A stretch of 64,000 nucleotides of DNA from Euprymna scolopes. Lineage: Eukaryota. The stretch lies in NCBI GenBank assembly GCA_053919585.1, contig CM132804.1; one strand, 5' to 3'. Each line of letters begins with the position of its first letter. The stretch's first letter is position 1. Below, in pieces: positions 6,025 to 54,954 of the stretch. The translations under genes and the position numbers were made by a program. Under the pieces are notes generated by a model. It did no database searches. It was given only the letters and a program-made list of their open reading frames with translations, and had not been told where the DNA came from.

Positions 6025-6084
6025 AAATTCCACAGCCAAACAACGTCGCAGCCTACAAAAGCCATGACAATCAAGGAACCGGAA

Positions 6085-6129
6085 GTCCAAGACTCGAGTT
6101 TCGCCCTAGTTCGGGCTCATCAGTTAGAC
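6085..6129 (-). ncRNA. Type I hammerhead ribozyme, intact core
   Basis: Minus strand: GTCTAA-CTGATGA-GCCC(GAACTA)GGGC-GAAAC(TCGA)GTC-TTGGAC. Has the CUGAUGA and GAAA core, a 4-bp stem II, a minimal stem III with a palindromic loop, a GUC cleavage triplet and a 6-bp stem I. Confidence 0.88.
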
Positions 6130-6132
6130 AAA

Positions 6133-6204
6133 TCCGAACTCAGGATTCGAAACCCGAGCCTCTTGCATGCGAGGCAAGCACTCTACCAACTGAGCAAACG
6201 CCCC
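6133..6204 (-). ncRNA. tRNA-Ala(CGC)-derived head (pseudo-tRNA, Pol III A/B boxes)
   Basis: GGGGCGTTTGCTCAGTTGGTAGAGTG-CTTGC(CTCGCAT)GCAAG-AGGCTCGGGTTTCGAATCCTGAG. D, anticodon and T arms form, but the 3' acceptor strand does not pair with GGGGCGT. Confidence 0.8.
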
Positions 6205-6529
6205 GCACACAATAATTTCTATTAACCAACAAAGACCAAGCAAACCGTGCCGAAATCCGACTGTGAATTGAACCTACTTCGTCTCAACAAGGGACGCGGT
6301 CATCCAACCAGCTACATTCTGAAAATCCTATCATAAGTTGCTCGCTTGGTTAGTATTGCTGGATGGTATCGTCCTTTCGAGTTAAAACCCCTACTTGTGA
6401 GACATCGGCTTGGAGTTATTAGCTGGTTGGATGACCGCGTCCCTTGTTGAGACGGAGTAGGTTTATCTCACAGTCGGATTTCGGCGCGGTTTGCTTGATC
6501 TTTGTTGCTTAATAGAAATTCTTGTGTGC

Positions 6530-6649
6530 GGGGCGTTTGCTCAGTTGGTAGAGTGCTTGCCTCGTATGCAAGAGGCTCGGGTTTCGAATCCTGAGTTCGG
6601 ATGTGTCTAACGGATGAGCCCGAATGAGGTCGAAACTCGAGTCTTGGAC
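6530..6649 (+). ncRNA. Second copy of the tRNA-derived head (6530-6601) plus a degenerate hammerhead (6605-6649)
   Basis: Anticodon loop changed to CTCGTAT. Core reads CGGATGA instead of CTGATGA, and stem II (GCCC/GGTC) has a mismatch. Confidence 0.8.
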
Positions 6650-7146
6650 TTCCGGTTCGTTGATTGTCATGGCTCTTGTGGGCTGCGACGTTGTTTGGCT
6701 GCGGAATTTATTATATACAATCTCTCACATTCTGAAAATTATATATATATATATATATATGTTTATATGTGTATGTGCATGCNNNNNNNNNNNNNNNNNN
6801 NNNNNNNNNNNNNNNNNNNNNNNNNNNNNNNNNNNNNNNNNNNNNNNNNNNNNNNNNNNNNNNNNNNNNNNNNNNNNNNNNNNNNNNNNNNNNNNNNNNN
6901 NNNNNNNNNNNNNNNNNNNNNNNNNNNNNNNNNNNTTGAAAATAAAAATCCAGCAGAGTGCTCAATTAAAAGGAAAATCCGAAAAATAAGAGCGTATTTA
7001 TATTTTATATTTTGTGTACAGAAAGTTGTTAGATGAGATAAGTCATCGGTACCGTCGGTTTCAAACCCGATAATTAGGACCGTTTTACATATCCATATCA
7101 AGCTCTCCTCAGCCAGTACTCATCTCTTTCTGTACACAAAATACAA

Positions 7147-8454: not shown

Positions 8455-11400
8455 AACCTGGCTTGACGATTGCTTAAGACTTTGACTACGCAACGTACAA
8501 AACCCCACTAAGTCGAATCTGGCTTGACGAATGCTTAACAATTTGACTACGCAACGTACAAAACCCCGCTAACTCGCATCTGGCTTGACAAATGCTTAAC
8601 AATTTGACTACGCAACGTATAAATCCCCCACTTACTCGAACCTAGCTTGAGGAATGCTTAACAATTTGACTACGCAACGTACAAAACCCCACTTACTCGG
8701 ACCTGGCTTGAGGAATGCTTAACAATTTGACTACGCAACGTACAAAACCCCACTTACTCGGACCTGGCTTGAGGAATGCTTAACAATTTGACTACGCAAC
8801 GTACAAAACCCCACTTACTCGGACCTGGCTTGAGGAATGCTTAACAATTTGACTACGCAACGTATAAAAAACCCACTTACTCGGACCTAGCTTGACGAAT
8901 GCTTAACAATTTGACTACGCAACGTACAAACCCCCACTTACTCGAACCTAGCTTGAGGAATGCTAAGCAATTTGACTACGCAACGTACAAAACCCCACTT
9001 ACTCGGAGCTGGCTTGAGGAATGCTTAACAATTTGACTACGCAATGTATAAAAACCCCACTTACTCGGACCTAGCTTGACGAATTCTTAACAATTTGACT
9101 ACGCAATGTATAAAAACCCCATTAACTCGAACCTGGCTTGACGAATGCTTAACAATTTGACTACGCAACGTACAAAACCCGACTAACTTGAACATGGCTT
9201 GACGAATGCTTTACAGTTTGACTAAGCAAAATACAAAACCCCACTAACTCGAACCTGGCTTGAAGAATGCGTAACAATTTGACTACGCAACGTACAAAAC
9301 CCCACTAACTGTAACCTGGCTTAACAAATGCTTAACAATTTGACTACGCAACATACAAAACCCCACTAACTCGAATCTGGCTTGACGAATGCTTAACAAT
9401 TTGACTACGCAACGTACAAAACCCGACTAACTTGAACAGGGCTTGACGAATGCTTTACAGTTTGACTAAGCAAAATACAAAACCTTACTAACTCGAACCT
9501 GACTTGACGAATGTTTAACAATTTGACTATGCAACGTACAAAACCCCACTAACTCGAATCTGGCTTGACGAATGCTTAACAATTTTACTACGCAACGTAC
9601 AAAACCCCACTTACTCGGAGCTGGCTTGAGGAATGCTTAACAATTGTCTTACGCAATGTACAAAAACCCCACTTACTCGGACCTAGCTTGACGAATTCTT
9701 AACAATTTGACTACGCAATGTATAAAAACCCCATTAACTCGAACCTGGCTTGACGAATGCTTAACAATTTAACTACGCAACGTACAAAACCCGACTAACT
9801 TGAACATGGCTTGACGAATGCTTTACAGTTTGACTAAGCAAAATACAAAACCCCACTAACTCGAACCTGGCTTGAAGAATGCGTAACAATTTGACTACGC
9901 AACGTACAAAACCCCACTAACTGTAACCTGGCTTAACAAATGCTTAACAATTTGACTACGCAACGTACAAAACCCCAATAACTCGAATCTGGCTTGACGA
10001 ATGCTTAACAATTTGACTACGCAACGTACAAAACCCGACTAACTTGAACAGGGCTTGACGAATGCTTTACAGTTTGACTAAGCAAAATACAAAACCTTAC
10101 TAACTCGAACCTGACTTGACGAATGTTTAACAATTTGACTATGCAACGTACAAAACCCCACTAACTCGAATCTGGCTTGACGAATGCTTAACAATTTGAC
10201 TACGCAACGTACAAAACCCCACTTACTCGGAGCTGGCTTGAGGAATGCTTAACAATTTGACTACGCAATGTATAAAAACCCCACTTACTCGGACCTAGCT
10301 TGACGAATTCTTAACAATTTGACTACGCAATGTATAAAAACCCCATTAACTCGAACCTGGCTTGACGAATGCTTAACAATTTGACTACGCAACGTACAAA
10401 ACCCGACTAACTTGAACATGGCTTGACGAATGCTTTACAGTTTGACTAAGCAAAATACAAAACCCCACTTACTCGGAGCTGGCTTGAGGAATGCTTAACA
10501 ATTTGACTACGCAATGTATAAAAACCCCACTTACTCGGACCTAGCTTGACGAATTCTTAACAATTTGACTACGCAATGTATAAAAACCCCATTAACTCGA
10601 ACCTGGCTTGACGAATGCTTAACAATTTGACTACGCAACGTACAAAACCCGACTAACTTGAACATGGCTTGACGAATGCTTTACAGTTTGACTAAGCAAA
10701 ATACAAAACCCCACTAACTCGAACCTGGCTTGAAGAATGCGTAACAATTTGACTACGCAACGTACAAAACCCCACTAACTGTAACCTGGCTTAACAAATG
10801 CTTAACAATTTGACTACGCAACATACAAAACCCCACTAACTCGAATCTGGCTTGACGAATGCTTAACAATTTGACTACGCAACGTACAAAACCCGACTAA
10901 CTTGAACAGGGCTTGACGAATGCTTTACAGTTTGACTAAGCAAAATACAAAACCTTACTAACTCGAACCTGACTTGACGAATGTTTAACAATTTGACTAT
11001 GCAACGTACAAAACCCCACTAACTCGAATCTGGCTTGACGAATGCTTAACAATTTGACTACGCAACGTACAAAACCCCGCTTACTCGGAGCTGGCTTGAG
11101 GAATGCTTAACAATTTGACTACGCAATGTATAAAAACCCCACTTACTCGGACCTAGCTTGACGAATTCTTAACAATTTGACTACGCAATGTATAAAAACC
11201 CCATTAACTCGAACCTGGCTTGACGAATGCTTAACAATTTGACTACGCAACGTACAAAACCCGACTAACTTGAACATGGCTTGACGAATGCTTTACAGTT
11301 TGACTAAGCAAAATACAAAACCTTACTAACTCGAACCTGACTTGACGAATGTTTAACAATTTGACTATGCAACGTACAAAACCCCACTAACTCGAATCTG

Positions 11401-11640
11401 GCTTGACGAATGCTTAACAATTTGACTACGCAACGTACAAAACCCCACTAACTCGAACCTGGCTTGAAGAATGCGTAACAATTTGACTACGCAACGTACA
11501 AAACCCCACTAACTGTAACCTGGCTTAACAAATGCTTAACAATTTGACTACGCAACATACAAAACCCCACTAACTCGAATCTGGCTTGACGAATGCTTAA
11601 CAATTTGACTACGCAACGTACAAACTGGTAACTAACTCGA
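8455..11640. repeat. 61-bp tandem satellite, ~52 copies, with a 10-monomer (612-bp) higher-order repeat
   Basis: Consensus cctggcttgacgaatgcttaacaatttgactacgcaacgtacaaaaccccactaactcgaa. The variant ggagctggcttgagg recurs at 9005, 9617, 10229, 10475 and 11087. Confidence 0.97.
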
Positions 11641-25349: not shown

Positions 25350-28300
25350 GGCAAGAGGCATTCGTGTAGTACCTGCGGCATAATGGTGTACATAACAAAC
25401 GTATGGCCTCAAAAATCAACAAAACAGCAGGTCCAACGGCGAACCCCAAAGATACGTTTGCGGTTCACTTGGACACTAAAATCAGGGCTCCTATAACCAC
25501 AAAATCGTCCCCGAGAGCATTCCCCAGAAAACAAGCATAAACAACATAGACTAATTTTAGAGCAGCAACAAAAAGAGGGGCTACAAAAAATTTCGGGAAA
25601 GGACCAGTGGTTGGGAATTACTTGAATTTAAAACTTTACAGAAACAACTAAGATCAAAGACTAGTACCCAGTCTCCATCAAAAAGCCCAGACCCACGTAC
25701 TCCCCAAAAATCATCACCAGAAAAAAAATCATCATAAAATCATCATAAAAATGTCATCAGCAAATATCATGACTCCCCCTTATCACAGGACCAATAAAAT
25801 GGCAACAACAATTTAAACTAATACTATTCAATCCATCACACAAGATACCAAAATTAACTCCCAAACCACAACGCCTCTTCCGCCGAAAACCTATTTCCAG
25901 CACCTCCTACAAAGTCCCAGCCACCATCCCCATTCCTTTACAGGACTCTAAAAACAAACTCCTCCCAATTCCCCAGTAAAAAACTAATTTTAACAACCTG
26001 CACTCCCCCTCAGCCAATGACTCAGACAAATATAGAATACACTACATCCTAACCGGCATCGTCTTTGCTACATCATTGCGAACGTTATAACCAGAGTAAA
26101 AAGCCATCCGCCGAGAGATCTCAGAAAAGTATTTGATTTTTCCACAGTAAAAGTCCTCTGTGCCCACGACACCCTTAATTTCTCGAACGCCAACAGAATA
26201 TTAATAGTCATCAGAACAAGAGATGGAACGAAAGAAATCTAGCGAATGCTGGAGAAAGCTAATTAAAACTTTTATTTTTCACCCTCTCTATTTATCATCA
26301 ACGACCTTACGTTATAAAGTTTTAAAAAATCTTCTTTTGAGAGGGTTCCTGTTCAAATTCATCCCTCATTATATAGGGCTGCTTAACTAACATTTCCTTT
26401 GGCGGTATGCCCCATGGCGGCCATATAAACACTGCCATGACTGAAAATTTACAGGGAACGTGTGATTGACATCCTTATCCCTGACATGATCGTCTCGGAT
26501 ACACAACGCAAAGTGATCATAATGCCACTCAAATTAGCAAGCTTGATTGTTTGAGGGTTGACGGTTACCTCACAAAAACTTCGAGTTGCACGCGACCATC
26601 AACACCTTGGTTGGGATATTTGTTGGCTACAGGAGACTCTCTTTATTCCATCAGATTATTACGGTGTGTTGGATAGGGACTTTCATCTTTACTTAGTATA
26701 TTCTGATATCTATTCAGAGGGAGTTTTCTGGCTAGTTAATCAAAATTTGAAAGCACCATGTGACCCATGATCCTGCTTTTTAGATGTGCGTTTTTGATGT
26801 CACCGTAAGACTTATTGGGGTTTCTCCACATAATAGCCACAATGAGAATCCCCTTTCTTTCGACGGATCGAATATTTCATAAATATATCTAGACGGTTTA
26901 TTTTAGCGGGAGACTGGAACGCGGTGCTGGATCCTGATTAAGATCGCGGGAGTAACGTTTGAAGGGTGACCAATTGAAATCGGGATGTTAACTAATTTCG
27001 GGATTGTATCGATATGTTCATAAGTTCCGGAATTTAAAACCCCGGAAAGAAAGCATATACTTTGACGAGTAGTCACGGCTTCGATTCGATGTAACTTTCG
27101 ATTTATATGGATCAGTTCTAACAAGAGTCGACATAGGTTTTTTAGATTGCCCAAATTTTCAGAATATTTTTTATTCGGACGAGAAACTCACCCAGGTTCA
27201 TTTATACTTAGATTGCGTTAAACCTATGATGGCTTTAGAGTGGAAGTTCAATACGTCATTGTTCGACTTGAAGTACTTCCGGGATGAGCTTTTACTAACC
27301 ATACAACGGAAACCATAATTTGGAATACGTGGTGGGTTGATTCGAAAAAAAAAATTAGGGTATTCGTTGCTGATTATAGTCACCGACTTAATCTTAGCTC
27401 TCGGGTAGTGAAAACGACACTAGAGACTAGATTAGATCTGGCAGTAGAAGACGGAGACTGCAGTAGTTTTACTAGAATAAGGGCATAACTGGACTTGATG
27501 GATTACAATGGCGATCAGGGAATTTTAGTTAGGGCTGGTTGAAGTGAGGGCGAAACGAGAAAACAAATATTGCCGCTTCGTTGCGCGCGGAGAAGCGTTG
27601 GCGGTGAACCAATCGACATATCGTCAGTGTCACATTGCTGGACGAACGCACCTTGACCACAAACGATGGGAATTCGATCCTATTTTCAGGGTCTCTTCAC
27701 TAGAACGTCCACTCTGACAATGGTTCAGTTCCCCATATATTAAGTCCAGTTTTCTCGCCTCAAAGCGATAGAACCGGCTAGGTACGAAAGTTGCAAAAAG
27801 GAAGAAGTCTTGGAGGCTCTGAAACATGTCCAGCTGGAGAGAAATCCTGGTGTCGATGGGCTGTATTACGAAGTATATATGAGATTGTCGCCTTTTTATA
27901 ATCCGCATGGTCGTAATATTTTACTCCTGGTTTAAGAACGGGTGCATTCTTCAGTGTTTTACCAAAGGAATCATTAAATTGCTACACAAGGATAAAAATG
28001 GAGGGGATAGTTTACGTAATGTTCGTCTCTAAACGAAGTCTAATACAGATTTAAAGATTTTAGCCAAGATCTGTGCAAACCGTCTGAAACATTTCTTGCA
28101 TCGCCTTATAAATCCTCAAAAGACTTGTGCAGTTTAGGGCCGGACGATTCATAACTAATTTCTACGTAATTCCCTTGAGTATAGAAATAGTCGACATTGA
28201 AAACTCGCTGATAAATTTAGATACGTCCAAAGCGTTCGATAGGGTCGATCATCGTTACCTGGAGGCTGTTCTGTTCTCATCTGAATTTGGGTCACAATAT

Positions 28301-29720
28301 CGCTTCTGGATTCGCATTCTTTATGCAATACCCGGTGCGCTGGTAGAAGTGAATGGTGTGAGGCCGAAGCCTTTCAATTTGTTCAGATCAATTAAGGGTT
28401 TTCCGCTCTCACCGATTCTTTATGTGCTTGCATTTCGGCCTTTCCTTTGCAGGATTAGAGTTAATCCGGTCTTCGAGGTATTACTCTGCCAGTTGCTTAC
28501 AGGACAAGTGATTACTCTGCTCCCGAGTACTCGCCGACGAGGTAATTGTGCTTGTAAAAAGCAGTGCTTAGACTAAAGTCGTCAACATGAAAGTAAGACT
28601 GTAAAACATGCAACAGGGATCAAAAGCAACTGCGATTACTCCTTGGTTTGCGCATTGCAGCTTGAGGGGAGTACCTCTTCAGGGTTCATTTGACTGGATG
28701 GATCGGCTTTGGAAGATATTCGGCGTCTGATGCGGTCCGCAAATCCAGTTATAGGAAATTGGTCGGAAGTACTGGAAGCTGTTCACGCCATCACACGTTT
28801 ATGGGCCCTGAGAAATCTAACTTTAAAGGGTCGAGCGGAGGTTTGCAATTCGCACATTTATCCTCGTATCCTCTACCGTCTAACAGTACTTTCACTCCCG
28901 GAAACATCACTATTTCAACTTTTTAGTGATATTCTACATTTTCTTGTTGCACAGAAAGAAAACAATGGTTAGCAGGGATATCTGTTAACTGCATCCGTCG
29001 GAAGACGGTCTGATCATGCTAAGCATTGATATCTAGAGGTATACGCTTCTCATAATTTACCTAAACGGAATGTATACACTATGTGACCAGAACAGTGATT
29101 TTTGGACAAAAGACACTAAAAAAATTTTCCAGTTTTGAAAAGTGTACACTCGCCAACAGTAGAGACACACACGTTACCCCAACTGAGTGTTCCTTTATCG
29201 CGAATGTCGAGAGTCCTTGAAGCTCCTCTGACGGGTGAAAGTAAGCCTCTCTGACACCTGCGTGTTTCTTGTAGGGCGCTATATATGTTATAGTGCAGGA
29301 ATATCTTCAAGATGATAGGACGTAGAGTCTCGGTTTTATGAGTGGGGGGGCGACTCTTAGTATGGCCTTTGACGCCTGTGATGACGTGCCTTGATAATTA
29401 TGAGGTTTCACGCACCTTGCACATAATAAGAGATGTTCGCAGCAAACATGGTGAAGACGGTAAGTTGTCTGCGATCGGAGGACGAGATCGAAGCTATCAA
29501 GTGCGCTATCGTACGTCCGTGTCGGCACAGGCCAAGAGAGAAGTGGAATCACGACATAAGCAAGTTTACGGAGATAAAAACGTCACTGCTCTCCAGCTTG
29601 TTTTTATTTTCAAGCACCGCTTGGAAATTTGTATTAGGCTGGAGAAGGTGGAACTCACTCAGGCAAATTTCAACGAATGTAGGATTCCAGTTAAGACCAA
29701 TTGCCGCTGCTAGCGAGAAA
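25350..29720 (+). mobile_element. Tx1/L1-clade non-LTR retrotransposon, long but heavily pseudogenised (5' boundary uncertain)
   Basis: Motifs in order: APE endonuclease (MPLKLASL ~26522, DICWLQET ~26615, ILAGDWNAVLDP ~26900), WKFNTSL (27241), PGVDGLYYEVY (~27845), RT (LINLDTSKAFDRVDH, FPLSPILYVL; 28127-28576) and LWALRNLTLKGRAEVCN (28800). Confidence 0.88.
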
Positions 29721-32814: not shown

Positions 32815-33847
32815 GGCGGGCGGCATGTAAAATGGTCAACCTCTTTCGACCCATCTGTTAGGAAATTCCTGATTTAGAAACTGTCTAACACGCTTAGCAA
32901 GGAGCTCCATCTTGTTGAAACACTGTATCATCTTTCAAGTTTAATTGTTCAAGTTGCGGAATAAAGTAATTCTGCAACATATCTAAGTAGCTGCCATTGA
33001 TAATAACACGATCTTCAAAAAAATATGGCCCTATGATTCGATTTATTCCCAAAGCACACCACACATTAACTTTAAGAGAGTCCCTATCATGTTCAACAGG
33101 TTCATTTGGGGTTTCAGTTCCCCAAACTCGGCAATTATGCCTGTTGACCTTGCCACTAATGTGAAATGTTGCTTCATCAGACAACAGTAAATTACTCACA
33201 AATGCATCATCATTGCACAGTTTTTCATTGAACTGGTGACAGAAAGTTAGCCGTGCATAATAATCCTCTTCTAACAACTGTTGATGTAATTGAATTTTGT
33301 AAGCTTTCATGTGAAGTTTTGCCCGCAGAATCTTATGCACAGTAGACTTTGGCAGCCCGAGCTCCAATAATGCCCGTCTTACAGACTTTCTTGGACTTGC
33401 AGTAAAGGATTCTCCTATGGAAGCAACACTTTCGTCACTGACACATGCCCTTCCAGAACGTTGTTTATCATAGACAGAGACCGTCTCTTTAAATTTTTTC
33501 ATGCATTTAACAATAGTGTTCCTATGAGGCGCTTTTTTATTGTATTCAATTCTAAACTGCCTTTGTACAGCAATAGTAGATTTCAATTCAGCCAACCAAA
33601 AGGACACAGTTTACTTTTTCCTCAATTGAAGCCATGGGATCAAATTGATTCTGAAAAACAAAAGAAAATATGTTTTACTGATTTTTTACTTATCGGAAAA
33701 TTGTTACGAGTTTTGTGGTGAAAAAGTATTCAATAACAAGACTTACAACTAGATACATGAAACTGTATAACATTTTTTTACAGATTATTTCTTTCGCAAA
33801 TATAAATAAAATTTAATTTTTTAAAAGTGCAGACGAACTTTATGGAC

Positions 33848-38989: not shown

Positions 38990-40049
38990 GCCCACAAAGT
39001 CTGGCCACATAATCTACATGATGCTTCCACAAAGTCTGGCTGTGATATAGATGGCTCGAAATAACGTTTAAAATGCAAACGTCAAGTATCATGAATCAGT
39101 TGTGCTCTAAACAAAAAACATCTATTTCGAACGTGCTACTTTCATATCAAATAACCTACTTTTGGGTTTATACGACTGGCTTTACTGTCTGTGCAGTGAA
39201 AATGGCGTGAATTGACGTTTTAAATGAAAAGCTAAAGATTTAATTATGGTCTAAAAAGGAACAGTCATTTCGAAGGCGCCTCTCTCATATAAAATAACCA
39301 ACCGTTGATTCTATATGTCTGGACTTTCACATTGTGTGGTAATAACACTTCTTAAATGCTGTTCTGATGTTAAGCTGTAAAATAATTTAACATTTTGTCG
39401 AATTTGCGTCTCTCACATTTCATCGGATTTTTTTTTCAATTAATGACTATGTTAAACTGTTTTTGACTCCTAATGGGGGTAGTGATTTAATTGCTGCCCA
39501 CATAAGCAATATTTGACACAAGGCCTAGAAAGTGGGGACTAAAGCAAGCTCTCCTAAATGCGGCTAGGAGCTGTTTCTTTTCCACATTCGGTGCAAAATC
39601 TTCTGTCTGTTTCGAGCGGGTATTGGCTTTTTTTATTGAAGGGCCACAGGGTGGGTAGATCGATCCACCCAACCAATCAGCGATACGTTTCCTGGAGAAT
39701 TCCAGACCCGAATTGCGTGTGAGCACTATGACCAGAATTTTGTAATCTGGGACCAAAATGAAATCATCTTCACACGACCTGAAGAGGTCAACCCCTGTCA
39801 ATTGTTTTGCTTAGAACCCAGCGCGTCTGGGCCGGGGTTTCCCGGGCGAACCAGTACAAATCTCGTTAAACAATGAAATATCAAGTAAAAGCATATCACT
39901 TTTTATACCCGCCGTTGTCCGGGATTCAATTTACATTTAACGGACAATTCTTAGCATATTGGCCCGGTCTTCCTCAGGTCCCAGGGGTCGCAACGTCTCC
40001 AAGGGGTGCAATCGCTCCCTCAAGACGATCATGTTACGCAAACAATAAT

Positions 40050-40922
40050 CTTGCTCCAGTGAAAAACGGGTGGTAAGGCCTGGGAAGGTGGAACTCCTGG
40101 TTATACCCAGGCGGTGTGACTCAGTCCGACAGGTGCTGGGCCGGTTTTCAGTCTCTCACCTGTCGGGCTGAGTGTCAAGAACGGATCTTTGACGTGTACT
40201 ATAAACTTGCCTTCCTGAAGCCGAAGCCGCTAGGGGACACATCTTCACCACGAATAATGGGGGTAGATAATTGTTTTCTGTTCACCACAGAAAAATGTAG
40301 CAAAAGGCCAGAAGGTGAGAGTAGGCAAGCACCCCTAAAGGAGGGACATTCTTGCCTCAACAAAAATTGCCGGGGCACCTCCGTCGGTATTCCCCGATAG
40401 GGGCGCCTCAGGCGACAAGCAATAAACTTGCCCATCGAAAAAACAGGATAGCAATGCCTAGGAGGGTGGGCATCCTAGGTGATAACCAAGCGGTGTACCT
40501 TAGTCCTGCAGGTGCTGGTCCGGTTCCCGTCCCCTCACCTGTCGGGCTTAGTGTCAAGTAACGAATCCTTGACGAGTACTTCTACTATGTCTCCCTACAT
40601 CCGAAGCCGCTAGGAGACCTTCCCCATCATGAGTAATTGGGGTAGTTATTTATTTGCCGCCCACCTCGGCAAAATGTGGCACAAGGCCGGAAAGTGGAGA
40701 TCAAGCAGTCTCCCCGAAAGGAGGGCACTCCTGCAATTGTAAAAATTGCTTGAGTAACCCCGTCGGCATTCCCCGGTAGGGGCGCCTCAGGCAGTAAGCA
40801 ATGAACTTACTCCACCGGAAAGCCCAGTGGCAAGGCCTGGGAGTGTGGACCTCCTAGGTATTACCCAGGCGGCGTACCTCAGTCCAACAGGTGCTGGGCC
40901 GATTCCCGGCCCCTCACCTGTT
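40050..40922 (+). repeat. ~380-bp GC-rich diverged tandem repeat (about 2.3 copies) rich in stem-loops
   Basis: Equivalent positions at ~40072, ~40451 and ~40829. Strand assigned from G-U wobble bias in the stems. Confidence 0.8.
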
Positions 40923-41680
40923 ACTAAAGAAAGTGTCGAATTTTGGAGTCAATCAGTTTGCCCTAGTCTCCGCCACGAACCGGCATTTGATTATTCGTCG
41001 CCATCTTTGTTACAAGGAATTACTTAAAACTCAAGATCGGAACGGCACTGAATCTTTTTTCCTAGGAATTAATTAACATTCAGGATCGGAACTGCACTGA
41101 TTCTTCACCGCCATCTTTGTTCAACATAATGTCTCAACACTTAAATATTATCGATAGTTTACAAAGTATTCCGATACAAAGCATTTCTAAGAAAACTTCG
41201 CAGCAGAGAATTACTTTCGTGTGAAATTTCAGAAAAATTGGACAGACCGTTTAGGAGTCCATAGGGAACGAATAGACACATGAGCACACACACAGACATA
41301 CCCAGTAAAAGTTTGTTTTATATAATAGTAGAGATATTAATTATTGTTGTAATTTGATTGAGAATTGTGTTAATAGTGTCATTTAGCTGATAACGTTACT
41401 TTAGAAATATTATAGGTTATATGCTGTATGGCTGGAATTGCTGTGATTTTATGCGAATTATTATCTCCTGCATTGCGATTTTAATTTCATCTTTCAGACT
41501 TTTGAGACATTATTTACTACTGGGATAAATTTATTCGTTTAGCGTGTCGTTCGAATTTATGTTTTTTTTATTTATAATTGAATATGGCTAATTAATGTCA
41601 AAATGCGATATAGAGATAGGTTATTCTTATTAATTGAAACACAAAATATACTTGGGCAAATAGTAAAATTAAATAGCAAT

Positions 41681-53637: not shown

Positions 53638-54954
53638 GGTGACCCAAAAAATCTAATTAGACCCCGTTTCTTAGTGTTTTTTTCCGAATGAAATGAAACT
53701 TTGGTCATAACTAGTTTATTATATTCAAAACATCACACCAAAACACTAGGCTCTTTGGCCTTTTTTCTCCGTTCTGCAGAATATGTTCTAGATGGCCTCC
53801 ATTTAGCTCCGTACATTTCTTGAGGCGCAGCACGTAGTTGTCCATGACGTTCTTACAGCCCGAATTGGTAGTGGCTTTCATCTCCTCCGTGATGGCTTCC
53901 TTGAGTTCCGTGATGGTGCTGGGTTTCCCTGCGTAGACTCTGTCATTAAGATAGCCCCAAAGAAAAACACCTGGGGGGGGGCTTAGGTCCGGGCTATGGG
54001 GTGCCAACTCAACGAAGTTCTCTTTCAGCCAATCTCGGGACAGGTTTGATGTGTGAGAACTCGCTCCGTCCTTCTAGATCCAGAACTTGCCCATGAGCTC
54101 CGGGTAGATGGTCTGGAGTTCACTCTTGAAGGTTTTGAGGACCTACACATAGCGCTCCTTGGTGACTGTCACTGCCGCACCAGATTTTTCGATGAAGATT
54201 AGTCCGATGATGATTCTGGCCGAGATTGTAGCCCATACCGTGCACTTAGGAGAGTGTAGGGGATTGGTGGCTACTTCAGTGGGACTGCAGGACCCCCAGA
54301 AGATATTTGTCTTGGAGCTCGCCTTTCCTTCAAGATGTAAGTGGGCTTCATCTGAGGTCTAAAGGAGGTTCATGGAAACTTGGTGTCTCCTCGATCTTCT
54401 CGAGCATCTTGACTGCCATAGCCCTCATCGGCATCTTGTCTGAGGCTGTAAGGGTCTGCAGCGTCTGTATTCTGTATGGGTAAGCCCTGATATCGTTCAC
54501 CAGCACTCTCCTGCAAGTGTCACGGGACATACCGTGGAGCTGACTTTGCTTACGCACAGAGCGTTTCGGACTCTGCTGGAGAGACTCTCTCACTCGTTCG
54601 ACCAGCTCGGCTGTTCGTTTCTTGGGATGTCGTGAGTGGTTTGGACAGTTCTCTCTGGCAGCGTTAAGTTTCTCCACGGTCCACCATACTTCTCGAAGTG
54701 GTCCACCCAGTTCTGAATTCTGCTTTTGGATGGAGCCTTTTCACATTCGAACTGACGCATGAAACTGTCATGGATTTTCTTAGACGAGCCTGTCTTGTAG
54801 TAAAATTAAACACAGTTTATTCTTTGTCCCAACTTCCACTGGGGGCTTGGTGTACTCACGGTCTTTTATTCTGCCATGTCCTGTAAAAGAAGGGCAATCG
54901 GTGAATAAATAATGGAGATAGCACATAAAGTGTACACTGGGCCCGTTTTTTTGC

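What the first reader, a model, noticed from the sequence alone, without database searches (positions are those of the whole stretch)
40050..40922. Unidentified ~380-nt structured RNA module repeated in tandem with apparent covariation and a possible pseudoknot
Seen: diverged copies keep the same helices with changed sequence. Examples: CCTAGGA/TCCTAGG vs CCTGGGAG/CTCCTAGG; a 16-bp CTCAGTCCGACAGGTG/CACCTGTCGGGCTGAG stem; GTCAAG/CTTGAC; GTCTCCCTA/TAGGAGAC vs TCCTG/TAGGG; GGCAAG/CTTGCC vs GCAG/CTGC; CCCC-GRTA-GGGG. The conserved loop CCGAAGCCGC is complementary to a conserved upstream GCGG(T/C), suggesting a pseudoknot. G-U pairs favour the plus strand, and no shared ORF is evident. GGTATTCCCCGATAGGGGCGC loosely recalls domain IIIe of HCV-type IRESs, which is speculative. 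Inference: a selected RNA structure (IRES, ribozyme, or packaging/replication signal) of an unknown mobile element or endogenised virus.
Basis: partly seen in the sequence, partly recalled or inferred. Interest (0 to 1): 0.78.

Follow-up and report, generated by a model that had tools for sequence, protein, structure and literature searches.

The report
Folded module inside Copia retrotransposon LTRs
A 380-letter folded module sits in the end repeats of jumping genes in this animal, is shared by two different jumping-gene families and is often cleanly cut out, which points to an undescribed control signal of these elements.

Summary
The repeat and its hairpins are real. It is not an IRES or an endogenised virus. 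It is a ~380-nt module at the start of U3 in the LTR of a high-copy Ty1/Copia retrotransposon, in arrays of 0 to about 5, each copy bounded by an 11-nt direct repeat. Across 201 genomic copies, 7 of 10 testable helix pairs are each other's best covarying partner. No Rfam match. Two unexpected findings: (1) a second Copia family (gag DNA 76% identical, LTR otherwise unalignable) carries the same module at the same site, 95-96% identical to some first-family copies; (2) the array is often absent, with a clean junction at the 11-nt repeat, mostly in 5' LTRs (8 of 8 mixed pairs in one symmetric test; 21:14 vs 6:26 in sampled loci), though U/empty exceptions exist. Best reading: a structure-selected 3'-UTR cis-element (export, stability or packaging; like MusD MTE or HERV-K RcRE) that reverse transcriptase skips when it copies the promoter LTR. 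Function is inferred, not shown. The minus strand folds at least as well, and RNA-seq showed no cleavage pile-up.

The parts
39450..41146 (+). Solo-like LTR of a Ty1/Copia family ('family A'). No PPT upstream, no PBS downstream. The terminal CA is damaged and no TSD was recognised.
   Evidence: Ends match the TG..CA termini of other copies, which are preceded by a PPT or followed by PBS + gag; window letters
39471..39481 (+). First 11-nt direct repeat TAATGGGGGTA, 21 nt inside the LTR; the array boundary
39471..39564 (+). 5' part of an interrupted unit
   Evidence: profile match 39463-39561, E 1.5e-20
39565..40039 (-). Fragment of an unrelated second repeat family with an LTR-like TGTAAC end, lodged inside the first unit; not part of the module
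   Evidence: 1375 first-look candidates; flanks
40040..40254 (+).
   Evidence: profile match 40038-40249, E 1.4e-56
40255..40633 (+). The one complete unit. Closing helix P1 40260-40267:40581-40588 (decayed in this copy). Hairpins 40274-40294, 40325-40355, 40369-40413, 40414-40432, 40433-40451, 40456-40480. Three-way junction 40495-40498:40576-40579 with 40499-40551 and 40553-40573. Hairpin 40589-40618.
40489..40611 (+). Candidate pseudoknot 40489-40494 : 40606-40611 (loop of hairpin 40589-40618)
40622..40644 (+). Junction hairpin that uses the next 11-nt repeat. Its upper stem is hypervariable yet paired, and it competes with P1 of the next unit for the G tract.
   Evidence: mean inner stem 2.07 vs 0.50 in shuffles, 0 of 1000 reach it; 15 loop types seen at least twice, of 69
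40634..40922 (+). 3'-deleted unit joined directly to the promoter region
40923..41146 (+). Degenerate TATA-like motif, Inr-like TCAGTT (40953-40958), R/U5 with repeated CGCCATCTT motifs, LTR end
   Evidence: sequence; promoter roles inferred from motif knowledge (recalled), start site not mapped

Best explanation
The module is a cis-acting structure at the 5' end of U3 of Hydra-type aquatic Copia LTRs. Shown: Copia context; position next to the PPT; fold kept by compensatory change; presence in at least two families; frequent clean absence at the 11-nt repeat with a 5'-LTR bias. Inferred: in the element's RNA it lies in the 3' UTR, where it raises the chance that the RNA is exported, stabilised or packaged and so copied, as MusD MTE or HERV-K RcRE do. 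Reverse transcriptase stalls at the compact fold and jumps between the flanking repeats. This is most frequent on the 31-nt-old plus strong-stop strand, which builds the 5' LTR. The promoter LTR therefore usually loses the array while the 3' LTR, which templates the next RNA, keeps it. Template switches between co-packaged RNAs shuffle unit subtypes within arrays and between families.
For: Copia domains in 5 of 6 ORF fragments tested. PPT/PBS junctions and a 5-bp TSD (at least 4 of 5 letters) in 23 of 39 solo-like LTRs. Covariation: 6 of 6 tightly linked in-structure pairs are WC/WC vs 16 of 128 outside (120 copies); 7 of 10 mutual rank-1 pairs, P1 pair rank 2 both ways, raw-string TA 56/AT 22/AA 12/TT 7 of 107 scorable copies. 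Rare changes are strand-symmetric decay (G.U 705, A.C 745), so the signal comes from master lineages. Empty LTR starts 375 vs filled 259. Empty and filled LTRs share clusters (40/44, 7/3, 2/1) and age (p=0.32), so empties look like recurrent products, not a lineage. Polarity: 8 of 8 mixed pairs, p=0.008; 21:14 vs 6:26, p=0.001; matching TSDs in 2 of 3 mixed elements checked; 2 of 2 mixed family-B pairs. Family B: 6 of 6 fetched LTRs carry it (4 whole), median 88-90% identical to the 201-unit set against 76% gag DNA identity and unalignable LTRs. Sense pol transcripts and unit coverage in poly(A) runs. Precedents: PMC4588558, PMC11379458, PMC3187697.
Against: No function was measured. Strand is unresolved: the minus strand folds as well or better. 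Exact PPT-context counts (52 empty, 37 filled) have the same ratio as all starts (375:259), and half or more of 3' LTRs are also empty. Filled-5'/empty-3' cases exist (3 of 13 with a 5' LTR seen, among 40 fetched; 1 with a plausible TSD). In the 2 filled/filled elements examined, 5' and 3' units are not simple copies (84% in one; first-unit subtype differs in the other). An 11-nt homology is short for 50-85% deletion: PMC3187697 reports that deletion frequency rises with repeat length (41% for 110 bp). 30 of 47 family-B LTR starts and 2 of 4 paired B elements are empty, so the module may be optional. Unit reads come from both strands about equally. Copies are related and recombine, so covariation p-values are not phylogeny-corrected.
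Confidence: 0.5

Rival explanations
1. Palindrome-rich U3 enhancer repeat, as in Sirevirus LTRs. Pairing is maintained by RT snap-back and template-switch repair or by DNA-level protein binding, with no RNA function.
For: U3 location upstream of CCAAT/TATA-like motifs; both strands fold; the junction hairpin looks like repeated snap-back products; Sirevirus palindrome regions are indel hotspots that form hairpins (PMC4728375).
Against: An enhancer should be kept in the 5' LTR, yet 5' LTRs are mostly empty. Covariation spans 314 nt. Many loops and linkers are invariant too (13 runs). The module is more conserved between families than gag DNA, although recent transfer could also explain that.
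Confidence: 0.17
2. The selected fold is that of the minus-strand cDNA. It organises plus-strand priming or transfer next to the PPT, and skipping it is a built-in way to give a short promoter LTR.
For: The minus strand is more stable (alifold -209.9 vs -201.9; mean z -6.4 vs -4.7; both with RNA parameters). The module abuts the PPT. 5'-LTR bias. Three common A.C states on plus would be G.T on minus.
Against: Eleven common G.U states on plus, including both pseudoknot variants and two helix-internal ones. DNA energy parameters were not run.
Confidence: 0.15
3. Selfish passenger RNA, possibly self-cleaving with an HDV-like core, that rides Copia particles and is copied into a conserved LTR site by RT jumps or homing.
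For: Same site and module in two families, with 95-96% identical units. Arrays mix subtypes (within-array 83% vs between 82%). The B-like subtype is enriched last in arrays (19/57 vs 4/57 first, p=0.0008). P1 opens with G.U (178/201) inside the boundary repeat, followed by GUC (172/201) and CGAA (153/201) before the pseudoknot strand.
Against: No short HDV loop III (a 78-nt three-way junction sits there) and no P4; no Rfam hit; hammerhead core in 0 of 201. No begin/end pile-up in the unit among the 5 places listed. No free-standing unit recognised in 57 loci, though several have truncated, unresolved ends. Array order is shared between elements and between the LTRs of L085, which fits inheritance.
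Confidence: 0.14
4. IRES (HCV-type or other) driving translation.
For: Size and multi-hairpin fold with a pseudoknot; the start site was not mapped directly.
Against: No ORF downstream in the RNA; most 5' LTRs lack it; IIIe-like loop not conserved; no Rfam IRES match at E up to 10.
Confidence: 0.03

Closest known systems
MusD transport element (MTE), PMC4588558 (part 1 of 2 read)
   Same: About 400 nt, many stem-loops plus a long-range tertiary contact, at the 3' end of an LTR-retrotransposon RNA
   Different: MTE is single, lies beside (not inside) the 3' LTR of a retrovirus-like element and has shown export function. Ours is tandem, inside U3 of a Copia, excisable, untested.
HERV-K RcRE, 433 nt in U3, PMC11379458 (passages read)
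   Same: Structured element in U3 that acts in the RNA's 3' end; U3 deletions and exchange of a transport element by recombination are on record
   Different: Needs Rec; its deletions are lineage-fixed. No accessory ORF was seen here, and loss is recurrent, precise and biased to the 5' LTR.
Sirevirus (Copia) LTR palindrome region, PMC4728375 (parts 1-3 of 7 read)
   Same: Copia U3, GC-rich, hairpin-forming, upstream of TATA, indel-prone
   Different: Built from a 17-nt palindrome with 19-22-nt indels. Ours is a 380-nt multi-helix unit with compensatory change and whole-unit loss.
Retrozymes, PMC4918200 (abstract read)
   Same: Structured RNA of about 350-400 nt in LTRs, spread by an LTR retrotransposon's enzymes
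   Different: Retrozymes are non-autonomous and carry hammerheads. Ours sits in coding Copia elements and has no hammerhead core.
HDV/CPEB3-type ribozymes, PMC3386971 (passages read; other features recalled)
   Same: G.U first pair of a 7-8-bp P1, GUC after P1, CGAA before a pseudoknot strand
   Different: No short loop III with the U/G signature, no P4, extra hairpin enclosing the pseudoknot strand
Cassandra/Helenus/Ajax TRIMs, PMC10886601 (abstract read)
   Same: An RNA-like module embedded in LTRs
   Different: Those derive from 5S rRNA or tRNA; no such match here

Membership tests
Ty1/Copia LTR retrotransposon (host element) | Copia gag, protease, pre-integrase/integrase, then RVT_2 order | tested here: met
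   Retrotran_gag_2, zf-CCHC, Pol_BBD, gag_pre-integrs, SH3_retrovirus, RVT_2 in 5 of 6 fragments; positions
Ty1/Copia LTR retrotransposon (host element) | TG..CA LTRs, PBS after the 5' LTR, PPT before the 3' LTR, 5-bp TSD | tested here: met
   TSD in 23 of 39 solo-like LTRs. The PBS's match to an internal part of initiator tRNA-Met is recalled; paper search found nothing.
Hydra clade of Copia | RT phylogeny with reference elements | not tested
   No references at hand. Gag relatives at 35-65% identity come from cnidarians, crustaceans, echinoderms, a gastropod and fish, which fits the range in PMC6238403 (passages); the label is a guess.
Retroelement RNA transport elements (MTE, RcRE, CTE) | Located in the 3' end of the genomic RNA, about 400 nt, multi-stem with long-range contact | tested here: met
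Retroelement RNA transport elements (MTE, RcRE, CTE) | Promotes export of unspliced RNA | not testable with these tools
   needs a reporter assay
HDV-like ribozyme | G.U/G-C first pair of a 7-bp P1; catalytic C in a CGAA-type junction before P2 | tested here: met
   G.U 178/201, CGAA 153/201; role not shown
HDV-like ribozyme | Short loop III with the invariant U and G (PMC3386971), P1.1, P4 | tested here: not met
   P3 encloses two hairpins (78 nt); 40589-40594 pair with 40613-40618 in 93-97% of copies; no Rfam HDV-type hit
Hammerhead retrozyme | CUGANGA...GAAA core | tested here: not met
   0 of 201 on either strand
HCV-type IRES | Conserved IIIe GAYA loop and an ORF directly downstream | tested here: not met
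   GATA in 3 of 201 exact 12-mers; no downstream ORF
Group I or spliceosomal intron | U|...G or GT..AG ends consistent with the empty-site junction | tested here: not met
   Read by eye from empty and filled junctions: no register of the 11-nt repeat gives both ends; no Rfam hit
Site-specific SINE | Free-standing copies, 5' truncations followed by a full TSD, tail | tested here: inconclusive
   None recognised in 57 loci, but 19 left and 21 right ends fitted none of the scripted patterns and were read by eye; the sample is the best hits only

The most novel reading that the evidence does not exclude
The unit is a new kind of structured, possibly catalytic RNA that parasitises Copia retrotransposons: it occupies one conserved site in U3, moves between Copia families by RT template jumps, and its fold makes RT drop it from the promoter LTR while keeping it in the 3' LTR, so that it is inherited without disabling its host's promoter. 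This would be programmed LTR asymmetry driven by a passenger RNA.
Probability: 0.13. Interest if true: 0.9.

Novelty: new variant of a known kind. Interest (0 to 1): 0.62.

Why it matters
The two LTRs of a retrotransposon are assumed identical at birth, and LTR dating and annotation rest on this. Here whole 380-nt blocks differ between LTRs of single insertions, with a direction. Among the papers found here, structured 3'-end RNA elements were described for retroviruses and retrovirus-like elements, and none for an animal Copia. This module gives a testable handle on how Copia RNA is exported or packaged, with hundreds to thousands of natural variants for structure work. Its exchange between families shows a portable cis-module moving independently of gag-pol.

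Tried and rejected
Rfam: whole window at gathering score (3 hits, none here); 39300-41500 at E up to 10 (3 weak hits below gathering); 8 other copies at E up to 1 (18 hits, none at gathering, not inspected one by one). Metagenome pattern scan: 45 loci, best profile E 0.33, all treated as chance. Viral contigs: 0 matches. A protein-based scan of metagenomes for related elements could not be run, so relatives in other hosts remain unexamined. Earlier scan findings: nothing. First idea of a Helitron/DINE with central repeats was dropped once TG..CA ends, PPT, PBS and gag appeared. Retrozyme-like rolling-circle arrays were rejected because neighbours are no more alike than non-neighbours (4 of 117 within-array pairs at 93% or more). 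Splicing as the cause of empty LTRs was rejected: it cannot by itself give unequal LTRs, the ends do not fit, and no array-skipping joint was among the 15 shown (46 not shown). A poly(A) signal in the 40420-40426 loop was rejected (AATAAA 61, AATGAA 51, AATTAA 30 of 201). TSO/poly(A) loose ends near L084:6890 lie in an A-rich tract and were taken as artefact. The low depth at L084:7024-7229 overlaps a repeat the tool skipped, so it is not read as a break. An alternative helix 40369-40378:40482-40491 (one covarying pair, rank 10/7; two common mismatches) competes with the pseudoknot and was left unresolved. Literature searches that found no description of this module. The library lacks most subscription journals and Repbase/Dfam were not available, so the family itself may be catalogued. 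No supplements were opened.

Full report
1. Observation. The repeat is there: period 379, 2.3 copies, 76% matches, in a 53% GC island. The 781-nt stretch folds better than 20 of 20 shuffles on both strands (z -3.5 plus, -4.3 minus). Rfam gives nothing here, and nothing at gathering score in 8 other copies.

2. What it belongs to. The window lies in a 5.9-Gb genome. The unit has 4359 and 3797 first-look candidates with two queries (40 scored each). Matches begin and end at a fixed phase. Flanks show TG..CA ends, a PPT upstream in many copies, and a PBS plus gag downstream in others. Ten 10-kb loci hold broken gag-pol; 5 of 6 fragments tested hit Copia Pfam families. 23 of 39 solo-like LTRs have a 5-bp TSD at 4 of 5 letters or better. 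The array starts about 20 nt inside the LTR, upstream of CCAAT-, TATA- and Inr-like motifs (motif roles recalled; start site not mapped). It is therefore U3, and in the element's RNA it is 3' UTR directly after the PPT. The window copy is a solo-like LTR (39450-41146) with one interrupted unit (a 475-nt piece of another repeat family lies inside it), one complete unit (40255-40633) and one 3'-deleted unit.

3. Is the fold selected? I aligned 120 units (mean identity 82%), then 201. The units were taken where two anchor motifs lay at the expected distance, so heavily damaged units were left out. In the 120 set, all 6 tightly linked column pairs inside the predicted structure are WC in both haplotypes, against 16 of 128 outside; paired columns carry fewer common variants (39/254 vs 50/152). 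In the 201 set, with 118 hand-chosen pairs, the figures are 31/236 vs 37/146 (p=0.004). Of 11 helix pairs tested for rank, 10 had both columns variable: 7 are mutual rank 1 of about 116, the long-range P1 pair 40267:40581 is rank 2/2, and two are weaker (4/6, 21/6). The junction hairpin has 69 different loops; the 15 seen twice or more keep an inner stem (2.07 vs 0.50 shuffled). Against perfection: three common A.C states and three other common mismatches remain in the helices. These counts are not corrected for descent, but the covarying pairs split the copies in different ways, so they are separate events. The pseudoknot pairs in 87-96% of copies at each of 6 positions, and both common variants are wobble-neutral on the plus strand; there is no double change, and an alternative helix competes for the same strand. 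Strand is open: G.U 11 vs A.C 3 among common states (p=0.057, biased by how the helices were drawn), but the minus strand has the lower energy.

4. Presence and absence. Each unit is bounded by TAATGGGGGTA. LTR starts that continue straight into the promoter part number 375; starts that continue into a unit number 259 (exact matches). Most filled LTRs hold one unit (about 33 of 59 scorable of 70), then two, rarely up to five. Empty and filled LTRs do not differ in age (p=0.32) and share clusters. Among the first 100 listed places of each kind, 11 same-strand pairs lie within 15 kb: 8 mixed, all 5' empty/3' filled, 2 empty/empty and 1 filled/filled (one mixed pair has a PPT before its empty LTR). 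In 55 empty and 70 filled loci, PBS-only vs PPT-only counts are 21:14 and 6:26 (p=0.001; the rest solo, both or unresolved). Of 3 mixed elements compared, LTR identity is 95-96% and 2 have exact TSDs. Against: exact PPT-context counts are 52 empty vs 37 filled, the same ratio as overall. Of 40 of those 52 fetched, 10 have an empty 5' LTR, 3 a filled one (1 with a plausible TSD), 2 are unclear and 25 show none. Of 9 filled 3' LTRs fetched upstream, 1 has an empty 5' LTR, 2 have a PBS with no unit upstream, 1 is filled, 1 ambiguous and 4 show none. The other filled 3' LTRs could not be examined. The data fit loss from both LTRs, heavier in the 5' one (roughly 80-85% vs 50-60%, my estimate). In the 2 filled/filled elements, array order is shared in one, but units are not simple copies.

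5. A second family. Searching the genome with a gag relative led to family B: gag DNA 75-76% identical over 409 nt, LTR not alignable beyond 21-35 nt, 2222 first-look candidates, top 40 at 96-100%. Its LTR has TAATGGGGTA at the same position. Of 47 exact left contexts, 30 continue with T (empty type), 16 with G and 1 with A. All 6 G-type LTRs fetched carry the unit: 4 whole (E about 1e-137), 1 internally deleted, 1 with its first 90 nt. They are 93-97% identical to each other and 95-96% identical to units in family-A LTRs (L197, L020, L112, L113, L120; the top hit L080 is itself in a B-type LTR). The helices hold. Four paired B elements: 2 empty/filled, 2 empty/empty. The B-like subtype is enriched at the last position of arrays (19/57 vs 4/57 first), as expected if minus-strand synthesis switches onto a B RNA at the repeat.

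6. RNA. On one family-A element (4-13% of three raw runs read, 85% likeness), pol bins are strongly one-sided (35:1.5, 40:3.9, 33:0.6 in X23), which is sense RNA if the library is of the usual type. Unit bins have 30-53 and 31-52 on the two strands. There is no excess pointing to an abundant poly(A) small RNA and no begin/end pile-up in the unit. Non-polyadenylated or circular RNA would be missed. Contigs of a second organism label (X15, RNA status guessed) also cover the unit and a unit-to-unit joint.

7. Mechanism. Shown: context, fold conservation, sharing, precise and biased absence. Inferred: a module lost this often, with no all-empty cluster found, would vanish unless RNAs that carry it are favoured. 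The simplest favouring step is export, stability or packaging, as for MusD MTE (about 400 nt, kissing loop and pseudoknot, beside the 3' LTR; PMC4588558) or RcRE (433 nt in U3; PMC11379458). RT deletes direct repeats on both RNA and DNA templates, and stem-loops promote switching (PMC3187697). The plus strong-stop strand meets the fold after only 31 nt and becomes the 5' LTR, which would give the bias. The weak point is the short homology. P1 brings the unit's two ends close, which may compensate (inference). Recombination among co-packaged RNAs is documented within families (PMC6894440, passages). Rivals: palindromic enhancer with repair-made covariation (0.17), a cDNA-level structure (0.15), a selfish and possibly catalytic passenger (0.14), IRES (0.03).

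8. Verdict. A real, structure-conserved module of no Rfam family, in a known kind of element, working most likely like retroelement 3'-end RNA elements but not shown to be one. New variant of a known kind; interest 0.62. The cross-family sharing and the LTR asymmetry are the parts a specialist would not expect.

Noticed in passing
window 6047-6720: Inverted-repeat element whose arms each hold a tRNA-like stretch (6140-6195 minus, 6539-6594 plus) next to a type I hammerhead. The minus arm scores 50.9 bits at 6085-6129; the partner arm looks degenerate. A similar arm appears beside L022.
   Followed up: partly
window 8455-11624: 61-bp satellite, 52 copies, with a 490-bp higher-order period and strong strand skew
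   Followed up: no
window 39565-40039 (minus): Piece of a second high-copy repeat family with an LTR-like end (1375 candidates) lodged in the first unit, one end sharp, the other truncated
   Followed up: partly
window 41147-41335: Stretch ending in ATATAATAGTAGAGAT with a CA microsatellite, resembling a Helitron/DINE-type end (recalled), abutting the damaged LTR end
   Followed up: no
window 32894-33610, 53711-54073, 54348-54740 (minus); 28112-28576 (plus): Frames that read like Tc1/mariner transposase and LINE RT fragments, by eye only
   Followed up: no
window 41003-41105 and R region of family-A LTRs: 49-104-nt tandem repeats with CGCCATCTT (YY1-like, recalled) vary in copy number, also seen as joints in RNA reads
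   Followed up: partly
L084:5544-6641: 1.1-kb insertion in the element's 3' part with very high, mostly opposite-strand RNA depth (388 vs 84 in X23)
   Followed up: no
L312 and L119: The same partial deletion in both families: the first ~90 nt of the unit are kept and joined to the promoter part at a G-rich microhomology
   Followed up: no
L052, L054, L060, L064, L066, L068, L077, L079, L080 left ends: In B-type LTRs the ~8 nt before the first repeat vary and resemble the 3' arms of different junction hairpins; further LTR variants (L063, L072) and A/B-looking chimeras (L012, L060) exist
   Followed up: partly
L084, L085 and others: Several elements are flanked by (TA)n on both sides
   Followed up: no
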